Source: a virus
Taxonomy: Duplodnaviria > Heunggongvirae > Uroviricota > Caudoviricetes
IMG/VR virus record: IMGVR_UViG_3300031758_000005
Direction: 5' to 3' (one strand)
Length of the DNA: 64,000 nucleotides
Part shown: positions 5,562 to 36,933 of the stretch, one piece after another
Layout of the letters: each line of letters opens with the position of its first letter
How positions within the stretch are numbered: the first letter of the stretch is position 1
Program-made: the position numbers and the translations under genes
The notes under the pieces: model-generated
Database searches by the model: none
What the model was told of the DNA's origin: nothing
What the model saw: the letters and a program-made list of their open reading frames with translations, nothing else

Positions 5562-6518
5562 ATGAGTTTCTTTGTTGAAGAAAAGTCAGATAGTGTGGAA
5601 CAACATAGTCTTTGGGCTGAAAAATATCGTCCATCGAAACTAGACAATTATATCTGCTCTGACAGTATCAGAGCAGTTTTTCAAGATTTTATTAATAAGA
5701 AACACATTCCACATATACTTTTACACGGTGGTGCTGGAACTGGTAAGACTACATTGGCAAAAATTCTAACAAGTAACATTGAATGTGATGTTATGTATGT
5801 TAATGCTAGTGATAATACCAAGGTGGAGTTTATTCGTGAAACTATTAAGCCATTTGCAGCTTCAACTGGTTTCAATCCATTGAAAGTTGTTATTTTGGAT
5901 GAAGCTGACTTTTTGTCAGCTAGCAGTCAGGCATCTTTGCGTAACTTGATGGAGACTTATAGTAGTACTACCAGGTTCATTTTAACGTGTAATTATGTTG
6001 AAAAGATTATTGATCCGTTGTGTAGTCGTAGTCAGGTATTTAAACTTGAACCACCTTCATTAAAAGATGTAGCTGTACATATCAAGAATATTTTGGATAA
6101 AGAATCTATCAAGTATGAATTGGTGGATCTAAAGAAGATTGTTCAGGATTTTTATCCTGACGTTCGTAAGATCATCAATTTTATTCAACAGAGTTCTTCG
6201 GATGGTAAATTGAAGATCTTGCAAAGTCAAGGTGCTAGCTTTGATTTGAAGAACAAGTTAATTGACTTATTAAAGTCTGCTAAGACCAATGGCAAGTCAT
6301 TTAATGAAATTCGCCAATTGATTAATGATGCGGGTACCCGTAATTTTGAAGAACTTTATACAGAACTATATTCTAGGATTGACGAATATGCAGTTGGTAA
6401 AGAAACATTAATTATTATAGAAATCGCAGAATATGTATATCAGAGCAGTATGGTCGTAGACAAGGAAATTACGTTTATGGCATGTGTTGCTAAAATTATC
6501 AAATCAATTAATAAATAA
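5562..6518 (+). CDS. Clamp loader AAA+ subunit (RFC small subunit/gp44-like)
   Basis: LWAEKYRP, Walker A GGAGTGKTT, Walker B ILDEAD, FILTCN and an SRC-like motif CSRS. Confidence 0.92.
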   Translation: MSFFVEEKSDSVEQHSLWAEKYRPSKLDNYICSDSIRAVFQDFINKKHIPHILLHGGAGTGKTTLAKILTSNIECDVMYVNASDNTKVEFIRETIKPFAASTGFNPLKVVILDEADFLSASSQASLRNLMETYSSTTRFILTCNYVEKIIDPLCSRSQVFKLEPPSLKDVAVHIKNILDKESIKYELVDLKKIVQDFYPDVRKIINFIQQSSSDGKLKILQSQGASFDLKNKLIDLLKSAKTNGKSFNEIRQLINDAGTRNFEELYTELYSRIDEYAVGKETLIIIEIAEYVYQSSMVVDKEITFMACVAKIIKSINK

Positions 6519-6519
6519 T

Positions 6520-7521
6520 ATGTTTCAAAAAAGAGCTATAGTATTAGGCGCTGGTGGTTTTATAGGTGGACATTTGGTTAAAAAACTAAAAGAAGAGGGT
6601 TATTGGGTCCGTGGAGTTGATATCAAAAATAATGAATATCATAATTATGCCGACGAATTTATTTTAGGAGATTTAACCGATTCTAACATTGTAGAATCTG
6701 TAATTTCAGAAAACATCGATGAGGTGTATCAATTAGCGGCTGATATGGGTGGCGCTTTGTATATTTTTACAGGTCAGAATGATGCAAATGTAATGCATAA
6801 TTCTGCATTAATTAATCTTAATGTAGTACATCAATGTGTTAAGAAAAAGGTAAAGAAAGTATTTTATTCATCTAGTGCCTGTGTATATCCTGAATATAAT
6901 CAGATGGATCCGAACAATCCAAAATGTGCGGAAAAAGATGCTTATCCAGCTGAACCAGACAGTGAATATGGTTGGGAAAAATTATTTAGTGAAAGATTAT
7001 ATTTAGCCTATAATAGAAATTATAAGTTAGACGTTAGAATTGCTAGGTTTCACAATATATTTGGTCCATGCGGAACATATAAAGGTGGCAAAGAAAAAGC
7101 GCCTGCCGCTATGTGTCGCAAAGCGATTGAATCGGAAAACAATTCTACGTTTGAAGTATGGGGAGATGGATTGCAAACTCGTTCATTTCTTTATATAGAC
7201 GAATGTATAGAAGGTATTTTGAGACTTATGCGACAAGATAGTTTTATTGGACCCGTAAATATTGGGTCTGAACAGATGGTATCAATAAACGATTTAGCTC
7301 AAATGGCAATTAAATTGTCTGGTAAAAATCTTAAAATAAGTAATATTGCGGGAGAAGAATTTTATAAAAAATATGGTTTTAAATGTCCTACGGGTGTACG
7401 TGGTAGAAATTCAAACAATTGTTTATATAAAGAAAAAATGAATTGGTCACCTACGCAACCACTGGATATAGGTATAAAAAATACCTACGAATGGATTTAT
7501 AATCAAATTAAAAATTTTTAA
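6520..7521 (+). CDS. NAD-dependent epimerase, GDP-mannose 3,5-epimerase-like
   Basis: GAGGFIG, YSSSACVYP, YGWEK, GGKEKAPAAMCRK and WGDGLQTRSF. Start moved to ATG 6520, just after the clamp-loader stop. Confidence 0.88.
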   Translation: MFQKRAIVLGAGGFIGGHLVKKLKEEGYWVRGVDIKNNEYHNYADEFILGDLTDSNIVESVISENIDEVYQLAADMGGALYIFTGQNDANVMHNSALINLNVVHQCVKKKVKKVFYSSSACVYPEYNQMDPNNPKCAEKDAYPAEPDSEYGWEKLFSERLYLAYNRNYKLDVRIARFHNIFGPCGTYKGGKEKAPAAMCRKAIESENNSTFEVWGDGLQTRSFLYIDECIEGILRLMRQDSFIGPVNIGSEQMVSINDLAQMAIKLSGKNLKISNIAGEEFYKKYGFKCPTGVRGRNSNNCLYKEKMNWSPTQPLDIGIKNTYEWIYNQIKNF

Positions 7522-10233: not shown

Positions 10234-10842
10234 TCACACAATATATTTTTCTTTGAATTGTTCATTTACTAAATGTGGTTCATTTGAGTTCTCTATTGCA
10301 ATTAATAATTTTTCTCTATCACCATCTTTATCAGTCATAAACTTTATTATAGACAATACTTCTTCAATAGTATTGTCTTTTAAATGTTCATATATAACAA
10401 TTTTTGAATTGGGTATATATTTGAAAACCCATTTATTCAAAAAATGATTATAGAAAATTTTCTTTTCTTCAATCCAATCGTTATAGCGTCTATATTCTTG
10501 AAAGTTTATTAAATCCGTTGAACCCATTTCTTTTTTAAAATAATTATTATCTATGTTTTCCACTTCTAATTTATAGTAAGAGTTTAGACAATTTTCGGCA
10601 CCTCTTATTTGTATAAGATATTTTCTATCATTTTTAACTGGGGTGTATAAATGAATATCGTGATTTTTTTGTAAGTTCGTATTTTCATTTACATCAATCA
10701 TCAATTCCGGATTATTGTACATTTCGCAGTAATTAAGATCGTTTTTAAAATAATACTTTAATATTCTACTTAACCACGTGTGTCCACATCTAGGAAACGT
10801 AATACACTCAGTTACATATAATTCATTTACAATTCTTGTCAT
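10234..10842 (-). CDS. Sulfotransferase-domain protein
   Basis: N-terminal TFPRCGHTWL resembles the 5'-PAPS-binding TYPRSGTTW motif; also KNH..., LIQIR...NSYY and YEHLK. Confidence 0.62.
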   Translation of the reverse strand: MTRIVNELYVTECITFPRCGHTWLSRILKYYFKNDLNYCEMYNNPELMIDVNENTNLQKNHDIHLYTPVKNDRKYLIQIRGAENCLNSYYKLEVENIDNNYFKKEMGSTDLINFQEYRRYNDWIEEKKIFYNHFLNKWVFKYIPNSKIVIYEHLKDNTIEEVLSIIKFMTDKDGDREKLLIAIENSNEPHLVNEQFKEKYIV

Positions 10843-34896: not shown

Positions 34897-35229
34897 ATGA
34901 ACAAGTACATTACCGATAATTTCACCGGGTCAATTGACGATCTACTAAATCATTGTTCCAATCTAGATACATCAAAAGTAGAAGAACAAGTCAAAGCTGA
35001 AGAAAAAGAAGCCTGTATTCAAGTAATTATGAAAGAACTTGAATGTGATGAAGCTGAAGCTGAAGTCATTTATAATGAAATTGCTTTGGCAGAAGTTAAA
35101 GAAACAGTTGACAAGATGGTAGCAGAGGGTCTATTATATGTATCTGGTCACAACGAAGATGGCGAACCACTGTTTCAGCTAACTGAACTTGGTAAAGCTG
35201 TTCGTAACGAACTGGGCGACGGTAAGTAA
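34897..35229 (+). CDS. Hypothetical acidic protein
   Basis: 110-aa ORF; TATTTATA lies 3 nt upstream. Confidence 0.6.
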   Translation: MNKYITDNFTGSIDDLLNHCSNLDTSKVEEQVKAEEKEACIQVIMKELECDEAEAEVIYNEIALAEVKETVDKMVAEGLLYVSGHNEDGEPLFQLTELGKAVRNELGDGK

Positions 35230-35241
35230 TTATACCATAAT

Positions 35242-35322
35242 GCTCCGGTACTGGCGGGGTCTTCTAAGCCCTAAGTGCATAAATGGATGAAAATGGGGGT
35301 TCAAGTCCCTCCCGGAGCGCCA
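35242..35322 (+). tRNA. D-arm-less tRNA-like RNA, anticodon UCU (Arg)
   Basis: Acceptor GCTCCGG/CCGGAGC, G73, CCA; 7-nt linker TACTGGC in place of the D arm; GGGGT-CT TCT AA-GCCCT; 22-nt extra region; T arm GGGGG-TTCAAGT-CCCTC. Confidence 0.6.
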
Positions 35323-35324
35323 TT

Positions 35325-36050
35325 TTAATAAAGCCTATCTATTAAATTCCATCCATATTTTTTATACATATGTAAATTTTCTCGTTTGGTCAATTTAGTA
35401 ATACCGTTCTTTTCAATAATAATTTTCTTTGTATCGGAATTATAAAGATGTTTATCGGCACACGTAGTTGTACAGTATTTGTGAACAGAAGTTCTAGGTA
35501 AAAATATTTTTTTACAACGAATACATTCTGTTTCTTTTGAATCGAATTTTGGAAGGAAATACTTATCCCAGTTAATAACCCTACCAGAAACCCATCCATT
35601 AGGAACTTTGTTTGGATAAAATTTATTGCTTAATTTTAATTCTACATTGTGATACCATTTTTTTCCATAACCACTATTAGATGTGCCGGATTGATGTTGT
35701 GATTGAATTTTACTGAATTCGATTTTTAATTTTTGATAAATTCTATTATTTATTTTGTATTCTCTAAGTTGATTTTCGCTTTTATACCAAGCCATTGAAG
35801 CAAACGCTTTCCACATTTTCTTATATTCTACGGAAGAAGATGGAAATACAGAAGTTAATAAAAGGTGACATATATAATGTTCTCTAGCAGTCAGTTCAAC
35901 TAAATTCGATGAACAATTTAACCCACCTAAACACTTTGGAATTATATGATGTGTTTCTGTATATTGGTTTAAAACCGGATTGTTTAAACGATGATGTATT
36001 ATACGATAATACCAATTTTTATATTTATTATTTTGATCTTCTAATGTCAT
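35325..36050 (-). CDS. Free-standing HNH homing endonuclease
   Basis: ETHHIIPKCLGG..NLVELTAREHYICHLLL; GKKWYHN..GWVSGR module; C-terminal CxxC..CxxxC; inserted antisense in the tRNA region. Confidence 0.85.
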   Translation of the reverse strand: MTLEDQNNKYKNWYYRIIHHRLNNPVLNQYTETHHIIPKCLGGLNCSSNLVELTAREHYICHLLLTSVFPSSSVEYKKMWKAFASMAWYKSENQLREYKINNRIYQKLKIEFSKIQSQHQSGTSNSGYGKKWYHNVELKLSNKFYPNKVPNGWVSGRVINWDKYFLPKFDSKETECIRCKKIFLPRTSVHKYCTTTCADKHLYNSDTKKIIIEKNGITKLTKRENLHMYKKYGWNLIDRLY

Positions 36051-36167
36051 AATAAAAGTTATTTACTTATAAGTATAACTTAGAAGTTTAAAAAATAATC
36101 TTTTTGGTAATTTTACGAATATTTGTATATATTTATAATTTACCTCAAAACTTCTTGAAAAAAGAAG

Positions 36168-36224
36168 TTGATCTTTGAAAACTTAGTGGTAAGATAAAGA
36201 AGTAGTAAGTATTTGTTCTTTCAG
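36168..36224 (+). promoter_or_regulatory. Stable-RNA promoter unit 1 with boxA-like motif
   Basis: TTGATC-N16-TAAGAT; 25-bp repeat GTGGTAAGATAAAGAAGTAGTAAGT (36186-36210); GTTCTTT at 36215. Confidence 0.65.
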
Positions 36225-36304
36225 CGTGGTGGGAGAAGCACTCCTCTAGAACATCTTTGTATGGTGGAACTGCCTTGGCCTTTAACCAAAGGGGGTCACC
36301 GACG
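36225..36304 (+). ncRNA. Candidate ~80-nt structured RNA
   Basis: Closing stem CGT-GGTG/CACC-G-ACG; hairpins GGAG/CTCC and CCTTGG/CCAA-A-GG; lies directly after a promoter and boxA. Confidence 0.35.
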
Positions 36305-36322
36305 AAAGAATAAAATACTTAG

Positions 36323-36381
36323 TTGACAAAACAAAAAATTGTGGTAAGATAAAAAAGTAGTAAGTAATAGTTCTTTAACAA
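36323..36381 (+). promoter_or_regulatory. Stable-RNA promoter unit 2 with boxA-like motif
   Basis: TTGACA-N16-TAAGAT; repeat GTGGTAAGATAAAAAAGTAGTAAGT (36341-36365); GTTCTTTAACAA at 36370. Confidence 0.75.
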
Positions 36382-36389
36382 ATTTTAAT

Positions 36390-36466
36390 GGCCTTGTAGC
36401 TCAGTTGGTAGTAGCAGAAGCCTTTTAAGCTTTTGGTCGTGGGTTCGAGTCCCACCGGGGCCACCA
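36390..36466 (+). tRNA. tRNA-Lys(UUU)
   Basis: GGCCTTG/CGGGGCC, A-CCA; GAAGC-CT TTT AA-GCTTT; T loop TTCGAGT. Confidence 0.95.
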
Positions 36467-36470
36467 TTTT

Positions 36471-36684
36471 AACTGGTAATAAACGAAGTAAATCATATAT
36501 TGTGGGACAACTACACTTTTAAGTATCGTGATTGATTACGAAAGCATTTTTTCCGTGTAGAATTTGACTTTCATCATTAAACATATTAAATGATTAACCC
36601 AAACACAACTGTGTGCTGTGCTGAAAAATGTCCGCTACACAGCGATGCTTACGTAGATAAGTAACTCAATGAATATTACCAGTT
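36471..36684 (+). ncRNA. Candidate 214-nt multibranched structured RNA
   Basis: Perfect 11-bp terminal stem AACTGGTAATA/TATTACCAGTT; inner stems CTACAC/GTGTAG, TCGTGA/TTACGA, ATCATT/AATGAT, CTGTGT/ACACAG and GCTTA/TAAGT. Confidence 0.6.
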
Positions 36685-36692
36685 CATTTAAC

Positions 36693-36768
36693 GGAGTCAT
36701 CGTCTAACGGTTTAGGATAATTCCCTTTCACGGAATAGATCAGAGTTCGATTCTCTGTGGCTCTACCA
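36693..36768 (+). tRNA. tRNA-Glu(UUC)
   Basis: GGAGTCA/TGGCTCT, A-CCA; ATTCC-CT TTC AC-GGAAT; T loop TTCGATT. Confidence 0.93.
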
Positions 36769-36775
36769 TTTGATG

Positions 36776-36933
36776 TTTGGTTGTATAGCTAAGAAAAACA
36801 ACTTGGTGGAGGGTATATAACCAAAATGCCCCTAGAGTTGGAAGTTCTCTTAAAAAACTTCTTGGTTGCGGGGTTAGCGCATGGTATACTCTGTTTGTTG
36901 GGTGGATAGAGTATTCAATAGATACACCCAACA
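36776..36933 (+). ncRNA. Candidate 158-nt structured RNA ending in an H-type pseudoknot
   Basis: 12-bp stem 36776-87/36814-25; GCCCC/GGGGT enclosing GAAGTT/AACTTC; crossing stems ATACTCT/AGAGTAT and TGTTGGGTG/CACCCAACA. Confidence 0.6.

What the first reader, a model, noticed from the sequence alone, without database searches (positions are those of the whole stretch)
36776..36933. 158-nt RNA ending in a clean H-type pseudoknot
Seen: a 12-bp stem (36776-87/36814-25) capped by GCTAAG/CTTGGT, and a second domain GCCCC/GGGGT enclosing GAAGTT/AACTTC. Two perfect crossing helices follow: ATACTCT(36886-92)/AGAGTAT(36908-14) and TGTTGGGTG(36896-904)/CACCCAACA(36925-33), with loops of 3, 3 and 10 nt. 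A 16-bp perfect pseudoknot in non-coding DNA is unlikely by chance. Inference: an exonuclease-blocking 3' cap, a ligand/protein-binding element or a ribozyme. The topology does not fit HDV-like ribozymes.
Basis: seen in the sequence. Interest (0 to 1): 0.7.

Follow-up and report, generated by a model that had tools for sequence, protein, structure and literature searches.

The report
Pseudoknot-capped wcaG-like RNA in phage tRNA operon
This is a real, conserved folded RNA of about 165 bases lying between two tRNA genes of an uncultured lake phage: its front part resembles the orphan 'wcaG' RNA of marine cyanophages, its end is a pseudoknot supported by compensating mutations, and its function is still unknown.

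Summary
About 100 related phage contigs (67 distinct sequences) keep them through compensatory changes: S1 is 97.6% paired and S2 94.7%, and several relatives have entirely different helix sequences. The pseudoknot is therefore real.

That region instead folds as three short hairpins in the order and with the flanking motifs of the wcaG RNA (RF01761). It scores 30.2 bits, below the 42-bit cut-off. A model built from this clade hits a marine cyanophage wcaG locus in return.

The element nearly always lies between tRNA-Glu and the next tRNA, on the same strand, and ends in the same A-UUU trailer as the tRNAs. Canonical wcaG RNAs carry a plain hairpin plus U-run at that position, often just before a tRNA.

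My best reading is a stable non-coding RNA cut out of the tRNA operon transcript, with the pseudoknot as its 3' structural cap. A read-through attenuator is the main rival. It is a new variant of a known orphan RNA class. This scan had already noted look-alikes on other genomes.

The parts
36693..36768 (+). tRNA-Glu(UUC), the upstream neighbour. Its ACCA-UUU trailer runs straight into the element.
   Evidence: ARAGORN and Rfam. It is the upstream neighbour in most of the related loci.
36775..36803 (+). GUUU followed by hairpin P1 (36779-84 / 36798-803), with an A-rich 3' side of the loop.
   Evidence: Aligned to wcaG P1. Four of 6 pairs change on both sides and 91.9% of cells pair.
36804..36810 (+). 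Invariant junction UGGUGGA.
   Evidence: Invariant in 60 homologues. It matches the wcaG consensus UGGUGCGGA.
36811..36831 (+). Hairpin P2 (36811-15 / 36827-31), closed by GGG/CCC.
   Evidence: 92.2% of cells pair and the inner pairs covary (AU to GC; UG, UA, CG). The distant relative L228 has a longer compensated P2.
36832..36839 (+). Conserved junction CUAGAGUU.
   Evidence: Nearly invariant. It is kept even in relatives that lack P1 and P2.
36840..36862 (+). Hairpin P3 (36840-45 / 36857-62), loop UCUCUUAAAAA.
   Evidence: Aligned to wcaG P3. 95.6% of cells pair, with little variation.
36863..36885 (+). Conserved single-stranded linker UGGUUGCGGGGUUAGC..UGGU.
   Evidence: Invariant, but most of it was fixed by my search pattern. 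Variants GGGC, AUGAGUC and CUAGUAC turned up with another pattern.
36886..36892 (+). Pseudoknot helix S1, 5' strand.
36893..36896 (+). Loop L1 (GUU plus U36896, which pairs with A36933 in only part of the family).
36897..36904 (+). Pseudoknot helix S2, 5' strand.
36905..36907 (+). Loop L2 (GAU; the G is nearly invariant).
36908..36914 (+). Pseudoknot helix S1, 3' strand.
   Evidence: 97.6% of cells pair. Three of 7 pairs change on both sides (UA/CG 28 against 25; UA to GC 7 times; UA to CG twice).
36915..36924 (+). Loop L3. It starts with the conserved UCAAUA and is A-rich.
   Evidence: UCAAUA is kept even where both helices are rewritten (L153, L233).
36925..36932 (+). Pseudoknot helix S2, 3' strand.
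   Evidence: 94.7% of cells pair and 6 of 9 pairs change on both sides. The S2 hairpin alone has -13.2 kcal/mol.
36933..36941 (+). 3' tail AUAA plus UUUUU. This is the same A-UUU trailer that follows every tRNA of the island.
   Evidence: AUUU is invariant in 67 sequences. Trailers compared.
36948..36959 (+). boxA-like leader GTTCTTTATAAA of the next unit. It marks the downstream boundary.
   Evidence: Seven matches in the window against 2.3 expected, four of them on the + strand of the island. It is present after the pseudoknot in relatives.

Best explanation
The stretch 36771 to about 36941 encodes one non-coding RNA of about 165 nt. It is transcribed as part of the phage's tRNA operon and released from the precursor by the nucleases that mature the flanking tRNAs.

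It has two parts. The first is one or more wcaG-type units (GUUU, a 6-bp hairpin, then UGGYG): P1-P2 are an optional unit, and P3 plus a conserved linker form the core. The second is a 3' H-type pseudoknot (S1 7 bp, S2 8-9 bp). This pseudoknot takes the place of the plain GC hairpin found after marine wcaG RNAs.

The pseudoknot gives the RNA a compact, acceptor-like helical end. There, 3' trimming would stop in the A-UUU trailer, so the RNA is protected from 3'-to-5' exonucleases.

Shown: the fold, its conservation, its genomic position, and its presence in RNA libraries. Inferred: the processing, the protective role, and any trans-acting role. The variable unit number and the invariant unpaired motifs suggest a platform that binds a protein, a tRNA end or a ligand.
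For: - Fold: both helices covary. S1 is 97.6% paired and S2 94.7%, 9 pairs change on both sides, 0 of 500 shuffles reach the observed values, and the slid controls are far lower.
- Rewritten helices: relatives carry different but still complementary helices. L233 has ATCCTAAT/ATTAGGAT and CCGACTG/CAGTCGG. L153 has CCGAT/ATCGG and CCGGGTG/CATCCGG. L037, L161 and L150 are similar cases.
- 5' domain: P1-P3 are 93.3% paired with a covariation score of 0.293 against 0.114 in shuffles. The Rfam wcaG model aligns over its full length at 30.2 bits. In return, clade model R1 hits S-IOM18 at E 2.8e-5.
- Context: in the related loci the element nearly always lies on the same strand, 5-10 nt after tRNA-Glu, and often within roughly 25-40 nt of the next tRNA. 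That leaves little or no room for a separate promoter.
- Trailer: its 3' trailer is the same A-UUU that follows all 11 tRNA and tRNA-like genes of the island.
- Modularity: there are 0, 1 or 2 P1-P2 units before the same core.
- Position of the 3' domain: marine wcaG RNAs carry a simple hairpin plus U-run at that place, followed within 1-30 nt by a tRNA in 3 of 5 loci. A distant relative (L228) has nested GC hairpins there. The 3' domain is therefore interchangeable, as expected of a terminal structural cap.
- RNA libraries: short contigs from lake RNA libraries of two studies cover 36763-36965. One 563-nt contig runs from 36829 through the pseudoknot into the next tRNA.
- Precedent: T4 has two small stable RNAs (rnaC, rnaD) placed in the same way in its tRNA array.
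Against: - No read ends are available. The RNA data are assembled contigs, which cannot show 5' or 3' ends or rule out DNA carry-over.
- The conserved loop nucleotides (L3 UCAAUA, the L2 G, the linker) point to more than a passive roadblock.
- The U-run after a -13 kcal/mol hairpin would also fit a terminator.
- No partner or ligand is known for any wcaG-type RNA.
- The linker's invariance is partly an artefact of the search pattern.
Confidence: 0.45

Rival explanations
1. Cis-acting attenuator or riboswitch. The wcaG-type domain senses a ligand or factor. The S2 hairpin plus U-run (pre-organised by S1) acts as a conditional intrinsic terminator that sets read-through into the downstream tRNA-like genes and the ORF at 37200.
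For: - wcaG was proposed as a riboswitch candidate (PMC2864571).
- Canonical wcaG RNAs are followed by a hairpin plus U-run and then a tRNA or gene with no room for a promoter.
- Here S2 has -13.2 kcal/mol and is followed after 3-4 nt by UUUUU, and AUUU is invariant.
- boxA-like motifs in the island would fit a system of termination and antitermination.
Against: - I found no conserved alternative (anti-terminator) pairing. The GCGGGGU/ACUCUGU helix of the MFE fold and the pairing of S1a with the AGAGU junction both fail in L161, L153 and L233.
- S1 and S2 are compatible with each other, not competing.
- The U-run shrinks to 3 in several clades.
- The 20-nt loop lies outside usual terminator geometry, and the scan did not call it.
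- The same UUU follows every tRNA.
Confidence: 0.25
2. tRNA-end mimic or tRNA-binding RNA. The stacked S1/S2 helix with a 3' overhang and a T-loop-like UUCAA in L3 imitates an acceptor/T arm. In addition, or instead, the repeated UGGU motifs pair with the ACCA ends of tRNAs, as the T-box bulge does. The RNA would then act as a decoy or sensor for tRNA-processing or tRNA-targeting enzymes.
For: - It is embedded among tRNAs and has the same trailer as the tRNAs.
- Some relatives end in N-CCA-A (L129, L175, L206, L233).
- UUCAAUA is conserved.
- UGGU occurs after P1, after P3 and before S1.
- All tRNAs of the island end in ACCA.
Against: - The window's own tail is AUAA and the commonest tail is ACAA, not CCA.
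- The strand topology differs from a tRNA T arm.
- There is no covariation that could test UGGU:ACCA pairing.
- Neither the tRNA model nor the tmRNA model matches.
Confidence: 0.1
3. Self-cleaving ribozyme that helps to cut the operon transcript.
For: Pseudoknots are common in small ribozymes, and the element sits at a processing junction.
Against: - No match to any ribozyme family at E up to 10.
- The conserved nucleotides do not resemble any catalytic core I know of.
- The tRNA-style trailers suggest ordinary nuclease processing.
Confidence: 0.03
4. No RNA function: chance complementarity, or a small protein coded on the minus strand (ORF 36740-36934, 64 aa).
For: Perfect 7+8-bp crossing helices are not rare by chance, and an open frame exists.
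Against: - Compensatory changes in both helices.
- Single-base insertions and deletions among homologues would break any reading frame.
- Conservation is far above that of the flanking spacers.
Confidence: 0.01

Closest known systems
wcaG RNA motif (Rfam RF01761; Weinberg et al. 2010, PMC2864571)
   Same: - Three short hairpins in the same order.
- GUUU before P1 and P3, and UGGYG after them.
- GGG/CCC in P2, and A-rich 3' sides of the loops.
- Carried by T4-like phages of aquatic bacteria.
- Followed by a stable 3' structure and a U-run.
- Often next to tRNA genes.
   Different: - It scores 27.7-35.2 bits, below the 42-bit cut-off.
- The linker after P3 is UUGGUUGCGGGGUUAGC rather than GUGGCGUGCAUG.
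- The 3' structure is a covarying H-type pseudoknot rather than a simple hairpin.
- It lies inside a tRNA operon of uncultured lake phages rather than in a 5' UTR of sugar or high-light genes.
- The P1-P2 unit can be absent or doubled.
Phage T4 small stable RNAs rnaC (species 1) and rnaD (species 2)
   Same: Small structured RNAs of unknown function, placed on the same strand a few bases from tRNAs inside a phage tRNA array (annotation). That they are cut from the tRNA precursor is my recollection of the literature, not tested here.
   Different: No sequence or structure similarity. T4 rnaC ends in a recognisable T-arm-like hairpin, not a pseudoknot.
GOLLD and ROOL large RNAs of phages
   Same: Conserved structured RNAs of unknown function next to tRNA genes in phages from lakes. 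A relative of this phage (L037) carries GOLLD about 2.3 kb upstream of its copy of the element.
   Different: They are many times larger, there is no similarity, and the window itself has no GOLLD.
3'-terminal protective or tRNA-like pseudoknots (for example the pseudoknotted acceptor arms of plant-virus tRNA-like structures)
   Same: An H-type pseudoknot at the 3' end of an RNA that presents a helix end with a short overhang.
   Different: No CCA in most copies, different strand topology, bacterial phage context. This resemblance is from memory only and was not tested.

Membership tests
wcaG RNA (RF01761) | Score at or above Rfam's gathering threshold (42 bits) | tested here: not met
   30.2 bits in the window (E 0.0077 over 4.5 kb). 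Relatives score 35.2 (L037) and 27.7 (L206).
wcaG RNA (RF01761) | Three hairpins P1, P2, P3 in series, supported by covariation | tested here: met
   93.3% of cells pair. P1 has 4 of 6 pairs changed on both sides. 0 of 500 shuffles reach the covariation score.
wcaG RNA (RF01761) | Conserved unpaired motifs: GUUU 5' of P1/P3, UGGUG(CG)GA after P1, UGGYG after P3 | tested here: met
   Full-length alignment to the model. The motifs are invariant in 60 homologues. The clade model hits the S-IOM18 wcaG locus at E 2.8e-5.
wcaG RNA (RF01761) | Located in the 5' UTR of exopolysaccharide or high-light genes of marine cyanophages | tested here: not met
   Here it lies between tRNA-Glu and tRNA-like genes of an uncultured lake phage. 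However, 3 of 5 canonical loci also lie just upstream of a tRNA.
H-type pseudoknot | Two helices in which the loop of the first pairs with sequence 3' of it, each supported independently | tested here: met
   S1 is 97.6% paired and S2 94.7%, with 3 and 6 pairs changed on both sides. Helices are rewritten in L153 and L233.
H-type pseudoknot | Loop lengths able to span the grooves (L1 3-4 nt over 8-9 bp, L3 10 nt over 7 bp) | not testable with these tools
   Plausible from general knowledge of pseudoknot geometry. No 3D modelling of RNA was available.
Intrinsic terminator | GC-rich hairpin with a short loop, followed immediately by a U-tract | tested here: inconclusive
   S2 has -13.2 kcal/mol, but it has a 20-nt loop and a 3-4 nt spacer before UUUUU. 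The scan did not call it. The U-run is only 3 long in some relatives.
T4 rnaC/rnaD-type stable RNAs | Small RNA gene inside a phage tRNA array, on the same strand, within a few bases of a tRNA | tested here: met
T4 rnaC/rnaD-type stable RNAs | Sequence or structure homology to rnaC or rnaD | tested here: not met
   No hit of model R1 on T4 70908-71171, and the folds differ.
Known self-cleaving ribozymes (HDV-like, twister, pistol, hammerhead and others in Rfam) | Match to the family's covariance model | tested here: not met
   None at E up to 10.
tRNA-like structure | Acceptor-like helix ending in N-CCA | tested here: not met
   The tail is AUAA in the window and ACAA in most relatives. CCA occurs only in some.

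The most novel reading that the evidence does not exclude
wcaG-type RNAs, this pseudoknotted form included, may not be 5'-UTR riboswitches for sugar genes at all. They may be modular stable RNAs of phage tRNA operons, built from a variable number of 'GUUU-hairpin-UGGU' units. The UGGU motifs would capture the ACCA ends of tRNAs (as the T-box bulge does) or would sequester a host factor. The 3' pseudoknot with its T-loop-like UUCAA would imitate a tRNA acceptor/T arm. On this reading the phage would be sensing or buffering the tRNA pool, or decoying tRNA-targeting defences.
Probability: 0.1. Interest if true: 0.85.

Novelty: new variant of a known kind. Interest (0 to 1): 0.55.

Why it matters
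wcaG has been an orphan riboswitch candidate since 2010 and no function is known for it. This clade makes three points.

- **Modular architecture.** The repeat unit can be present in 0, 1 or 2 copies ahead of a constant core, and the 3' structure is exchangeable.
- **Link to tRNA operons.** The class is tied to phage tRNA operons more than to sugar-metabolism genes.
- **A large, diverse alignment.** About 100 contigs and 67 distinct sequences carry a covariation-supported pseudoknot, which suits structural and biochemical work.

The element also adds a well-supported member to the poorly understood set of stable RNAs that large phages place among their tRNA genes (T4 rnaC/rnaD, GOLLD, ROOL).

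Tried and rejected
Rejected by covariation.
No support. Relatives without the CCCC strand keep GCGGGG.
- **MFE helix GCGGGGU/ACUCUGU as an anti-pseudoknot.** It breaks in L161, L153 and L233.
- **S1a pairing with the AGAGU(AU) junction at 36834-38.** The junction does not covary with S1a, whereas S1b does.
- **P2-loop AACCAA with linker UUGGUU (36819-24/36862-67).** The pairing is lost in the roughly 10 sequences whose loop reads TAGGAAACTACG, and it is absent from canonical wcaG.
- **Minus-strand ORF 36740-36934.** 1-nt indels among the homologues rule it out.
- **Ribozyme, tmRNA and other Rfam families.** No match.
- **Homology to T4 rnaC/rnaD.** None.
- **Nearest isolate by polymerase, Microcystis phage Mel-JY01 (42% aa).** It has no copy; the best hit has E 0.99.
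- **Isolate phage records.** Only the tRNA parts match. Megablast of 20 kb found nothing.
- **One genome per prokaryote species.** The 19-nt core pattern was not found.
- **The window's own genome.** Not held.
- **First 14-nt pattern scan.** Mostly chance hits. Two chance hits of the 19-nt scan (L137, L169) were excluded.
- **RNA-library contigs.** Parts of the stretch without cover (for example 37048-37300 in X3, X5 and X10) are not used as evidence. Contigs give no ends, so neither processing nor termination could be tested.

Full report
**Observation.**
The two crossing helices are exactly as described. S1 is 36886-92 with 36908-14. S2 is 36896-904 with 36925-33. The loops are 3, 3 and 10 nt. 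On one sequence alone this is not compelling. In 40 simulated 64-kb sequences of the same composition, perfect 7+8-bp crossing helices with comparable loops appeared 0.7 times per sequence (14 of 40 had at least one). The window itself has a second, AT-rich instance at 10390-10443. A nested-only fold of 36769-36945 scores z = -2.3 against shuffles.

**Homologues.**
- The ORF at 37200-37979 led to three IMG/VR contigs with the same upstream region.
- Pattern scans of IMG/VR and of the metagenome collection then gave about 100 contigs with the element. They comprise 67 distinct sequences of the P3-to-U-run part.
- Two 19-mer hits were chance and were dropped.
- No isolate phage record carries it, nor does any of the prokaryote genomes scanned.
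- One carrier contig is a 296-kb phage genome rated complete, with a single copy.
- The nearest isolate by DNA polymerase is Microcystis phage Mel-JY01 at 42% identity, and it lacks the element.

**The pseudoknot is real.** The counts on alignment A2 are:

| Helix | Cells paired | Pairs changed on both sides | Examples |
|---|---|---|---|
| S1 | 97.6% | 3 of 7 | UA/CG 28 against 25; UA to GC 7 times; UA to CG twice |
| S2 | 94.7% | 6 of 9 | – |

- None of 500 column shuffles reaches any of the observed measures. Sliding the 3' partners by 1-3 columns drops pairing to 33-55%.
- The outermost S2 pair (36896/36933) is unpaired in 25 of 67 sequences, so S2 is effectively 8 bp.
- Individual relatives rewrite the helices completely and stay complementary. 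L233 has ATCCTAAT/ATTAGGAT and CCGACTG/CAGTCGG. L153 has CCGAT/ATCGG and CCGGGTG/CATCCGG. L037 has ATCGTCTG/CAGACGAT. L150 and L161 change both helices.
- Unpaired positions are also constrained. UCAAUA at the start of L3 survives even in L153 and L233. The first base of L2 and the UGGUA before S1 are nearly invariant.
- The linker UUGGUUGCGGGGUUAG is invariant too, but my pattern required it. A scan anchored elsewhere found GGGC, AUGAGUC and CUAGUAC variants.

**The 5' part is a wcaG-type RNA, not a 12-bp stem.**
- A permissive Rfam scan aligned 36771-36876 to the whole wcaG model (RF01761) at 30.2 bits. That is E 0.0077 over 4.5 kb, below the 42-bit cut-off. Relatives score 27.7-35.2 bits.
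- On 60 distinct sequences (A3) the wcaG-type fold is 93.3% paired. The fold is P1 36779-84/36798-803, P2 36811-15/36827-31 and P3 36840-45/36857-62. P1 changes on both sides at 4 of 6 pairs, and the covariation score is 0.293 against 0.114 in shuffles.
- A covariance model of this clade (R1) hits the S-IOM18 cyanophage at E 2.8e-5 in a 71-kb search. The hit lies on a GUUU-hairpin-UGGUGGAG unit just upstream of, and overlapping, the canonical wcaG.
- The shared building block is therefore a repeat unit: GUUU, a 6-bp hairpin with an A-rich 3' loop side, then UGGYG.
- The number of units varies. L002, L123 and L209 have only the core (junction UAGAGU, P3, linker, pseudoknot) directly after tRNA-Glu. 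The window has one extra P1-P2 unit. L037 has two. L001 has an insert of about 80 nt.

**Context.**
- The window's island (35242-39149) holds 8-9 tRNA genes on the + strand.
- In nearly all related loci the element starts 5-10 nt after tRNA-Glu(UUC). The next tRNA, usually Met(CAU), follows on the same strand, often within roughly 25-40 nt of S2.
- Every tRNA of the island ends in ACCA followed by UUU or AAUUU. The pseudoknot is followed by AUAAUUUUU.
- A boxA-like GTTCTTTATAAA follows at 36948. The same motif precedes several tRNAs.
- Canonical wcaG RNAs of five marine Synechococcus phages are followed by a simple GC hairpin and a U-run. A tRNA then follows within 1-30 nt in S-IOM18, S-CAM1 and S-RSM4, and a gene follows in S-SM2 and S-H38. 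None of them has a pseudoknot there.
- A distant relative (L228) has nested GC hairpins at that position.

**Expression.**
Lake-water RNA libraries from two studies contain short contigs (61-161 nt) that cover 36763-36965. One 563-nt contig runs from 36829 through the pseudoknot into the next tRNA of a relative. Contigs cannot show ends or exclude DNA carry-over, so this shows only that the sequence is present in RNA libraries.

**Mechanism.**
- I favour (0.45) a stable RNA excised from the tRNA operon precursor, with the pseudoknot as its 3' structural cap. The reasons are its place as one unit of the array, its tRNA-like trailer, the lack of room for a promoter before the next tRNA, and the interchangeability of the 3' domain across the wider family. 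The T4 precedent also fits: rnaC and rnaD sit in the same way in the T4 tRNA array, although they are not homologous.
- The main rival (0.25) is a conditional terminator. S2 has -13.2 kcal/mol and is followed by a U-run. However, I found no conserved competing helix, S1 and S2 are compatible rather than competing, the loop is 20 nt, and the U-run is short in several clades.
- A tRNA-end mimic or tRNA-binding role (0.1) is suggested by the UGGU motifs, the UUCAA in L3 and the CCA-like tails of some relatives. The window's own tail is AUAA, which argues against it.
- A ribozyme (0.03) and chance or coding explanations (0.01) have essentially no support.

**Comparison and novelty.**
The element works like, and is probably related to, wcaG RNAs, but it fails Rfam's threshold. 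It differs in its linker, in its pseudoknotted 3' domain and in its setting inside a tRNA operon of lake phages. I rate it a new variant of a known orphan class.

Earlier notes of this scan had already flagged look-alikes on other genomes. One was a pseudoknot between tRNA-Glu and tRNA-Met, another was tandem modules, and a third was an acceptor-like pseudoknot. None of the lines shown to me mentioned wcaG.

Noticed in passing
window 36467-36692: The 225-nt spacer between tRNA-Lys and tRNA-Glu has no ORF and folds to -44.7 kcal/mol with a long closing stem. The same RNA-library contigs cover it (36444-36694). It may be another structured RNA of the operon.
   Followed up: partly
window 36971-37044 and 37052-37125: Two cloverleaf-like elements with CAU anticodon loops and ACCA-UUU ends. 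ARAGORN and the Rfam tRNA model both miss them. Relatives have an ordinary tRNA-Met(CAU) at this place.
   Followed up: partly
window 36370, 36948, 37999, 38559 (+ strand): boxA-like GTTCTTTAACAA-type motifs precede tRNA units. There are 7 matches in the window against 2.3 expected. They resemble, from my memory of the literature, the boxA antitermination motif of rRNA operons.
   Followed up: partly
window 35108-35137, 36323-36350, 38408-38435: Repeated strong promoter-like sites (TTGACA, 16-18 nt, then TAAGAT or TATTAT) ahead of tRNA groups.
   Followed up: no
window 38565-38775: Very weak full-length alignment to manA RNA (RF01745, 14.2 bits, E 2.6) in a spacer between tRNAs. manA is the other cyanophage orphan motif described together with wcaG.
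   Followed up: no
window 38097-38190 and 38958-39050: Two tRNA-Ile(UAU) calls that are 94 and 93 nt long, unusually long for tRNA-Ile.
   Followed up: no
L037 1359-1821; L175 3176-3369: A relative carries a GOLLD RNA (212 bits) with an embedded tRNA in the same tRNA island. Another relative carries a group I intron (67.8 bits).
   Followed up: no
L223 637-700 (Synechococcus phage S-IOM18): An extra GUUU-hairpin-UGGUGGAG unit lies just upstream of the canonical wcaG match, so that locus has three tandem units.
   Followed up: partly
L228 about 6450-6700: A distant relative after a tRNA. It has a P1 with a GAAA loop, UGGUGGAGGG, a long compensated P2 and a P3-like hairpin. Nested GC hairpins plus AAUUUU stand in place of the pseudoknot.
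   Followed up: partly
window 10390-10443: A second perfect 7+9-bp crossing-helix pattern, in AT-rich sequence inside an ORF on the minus strand. It is probably chance.
   Followed up: no
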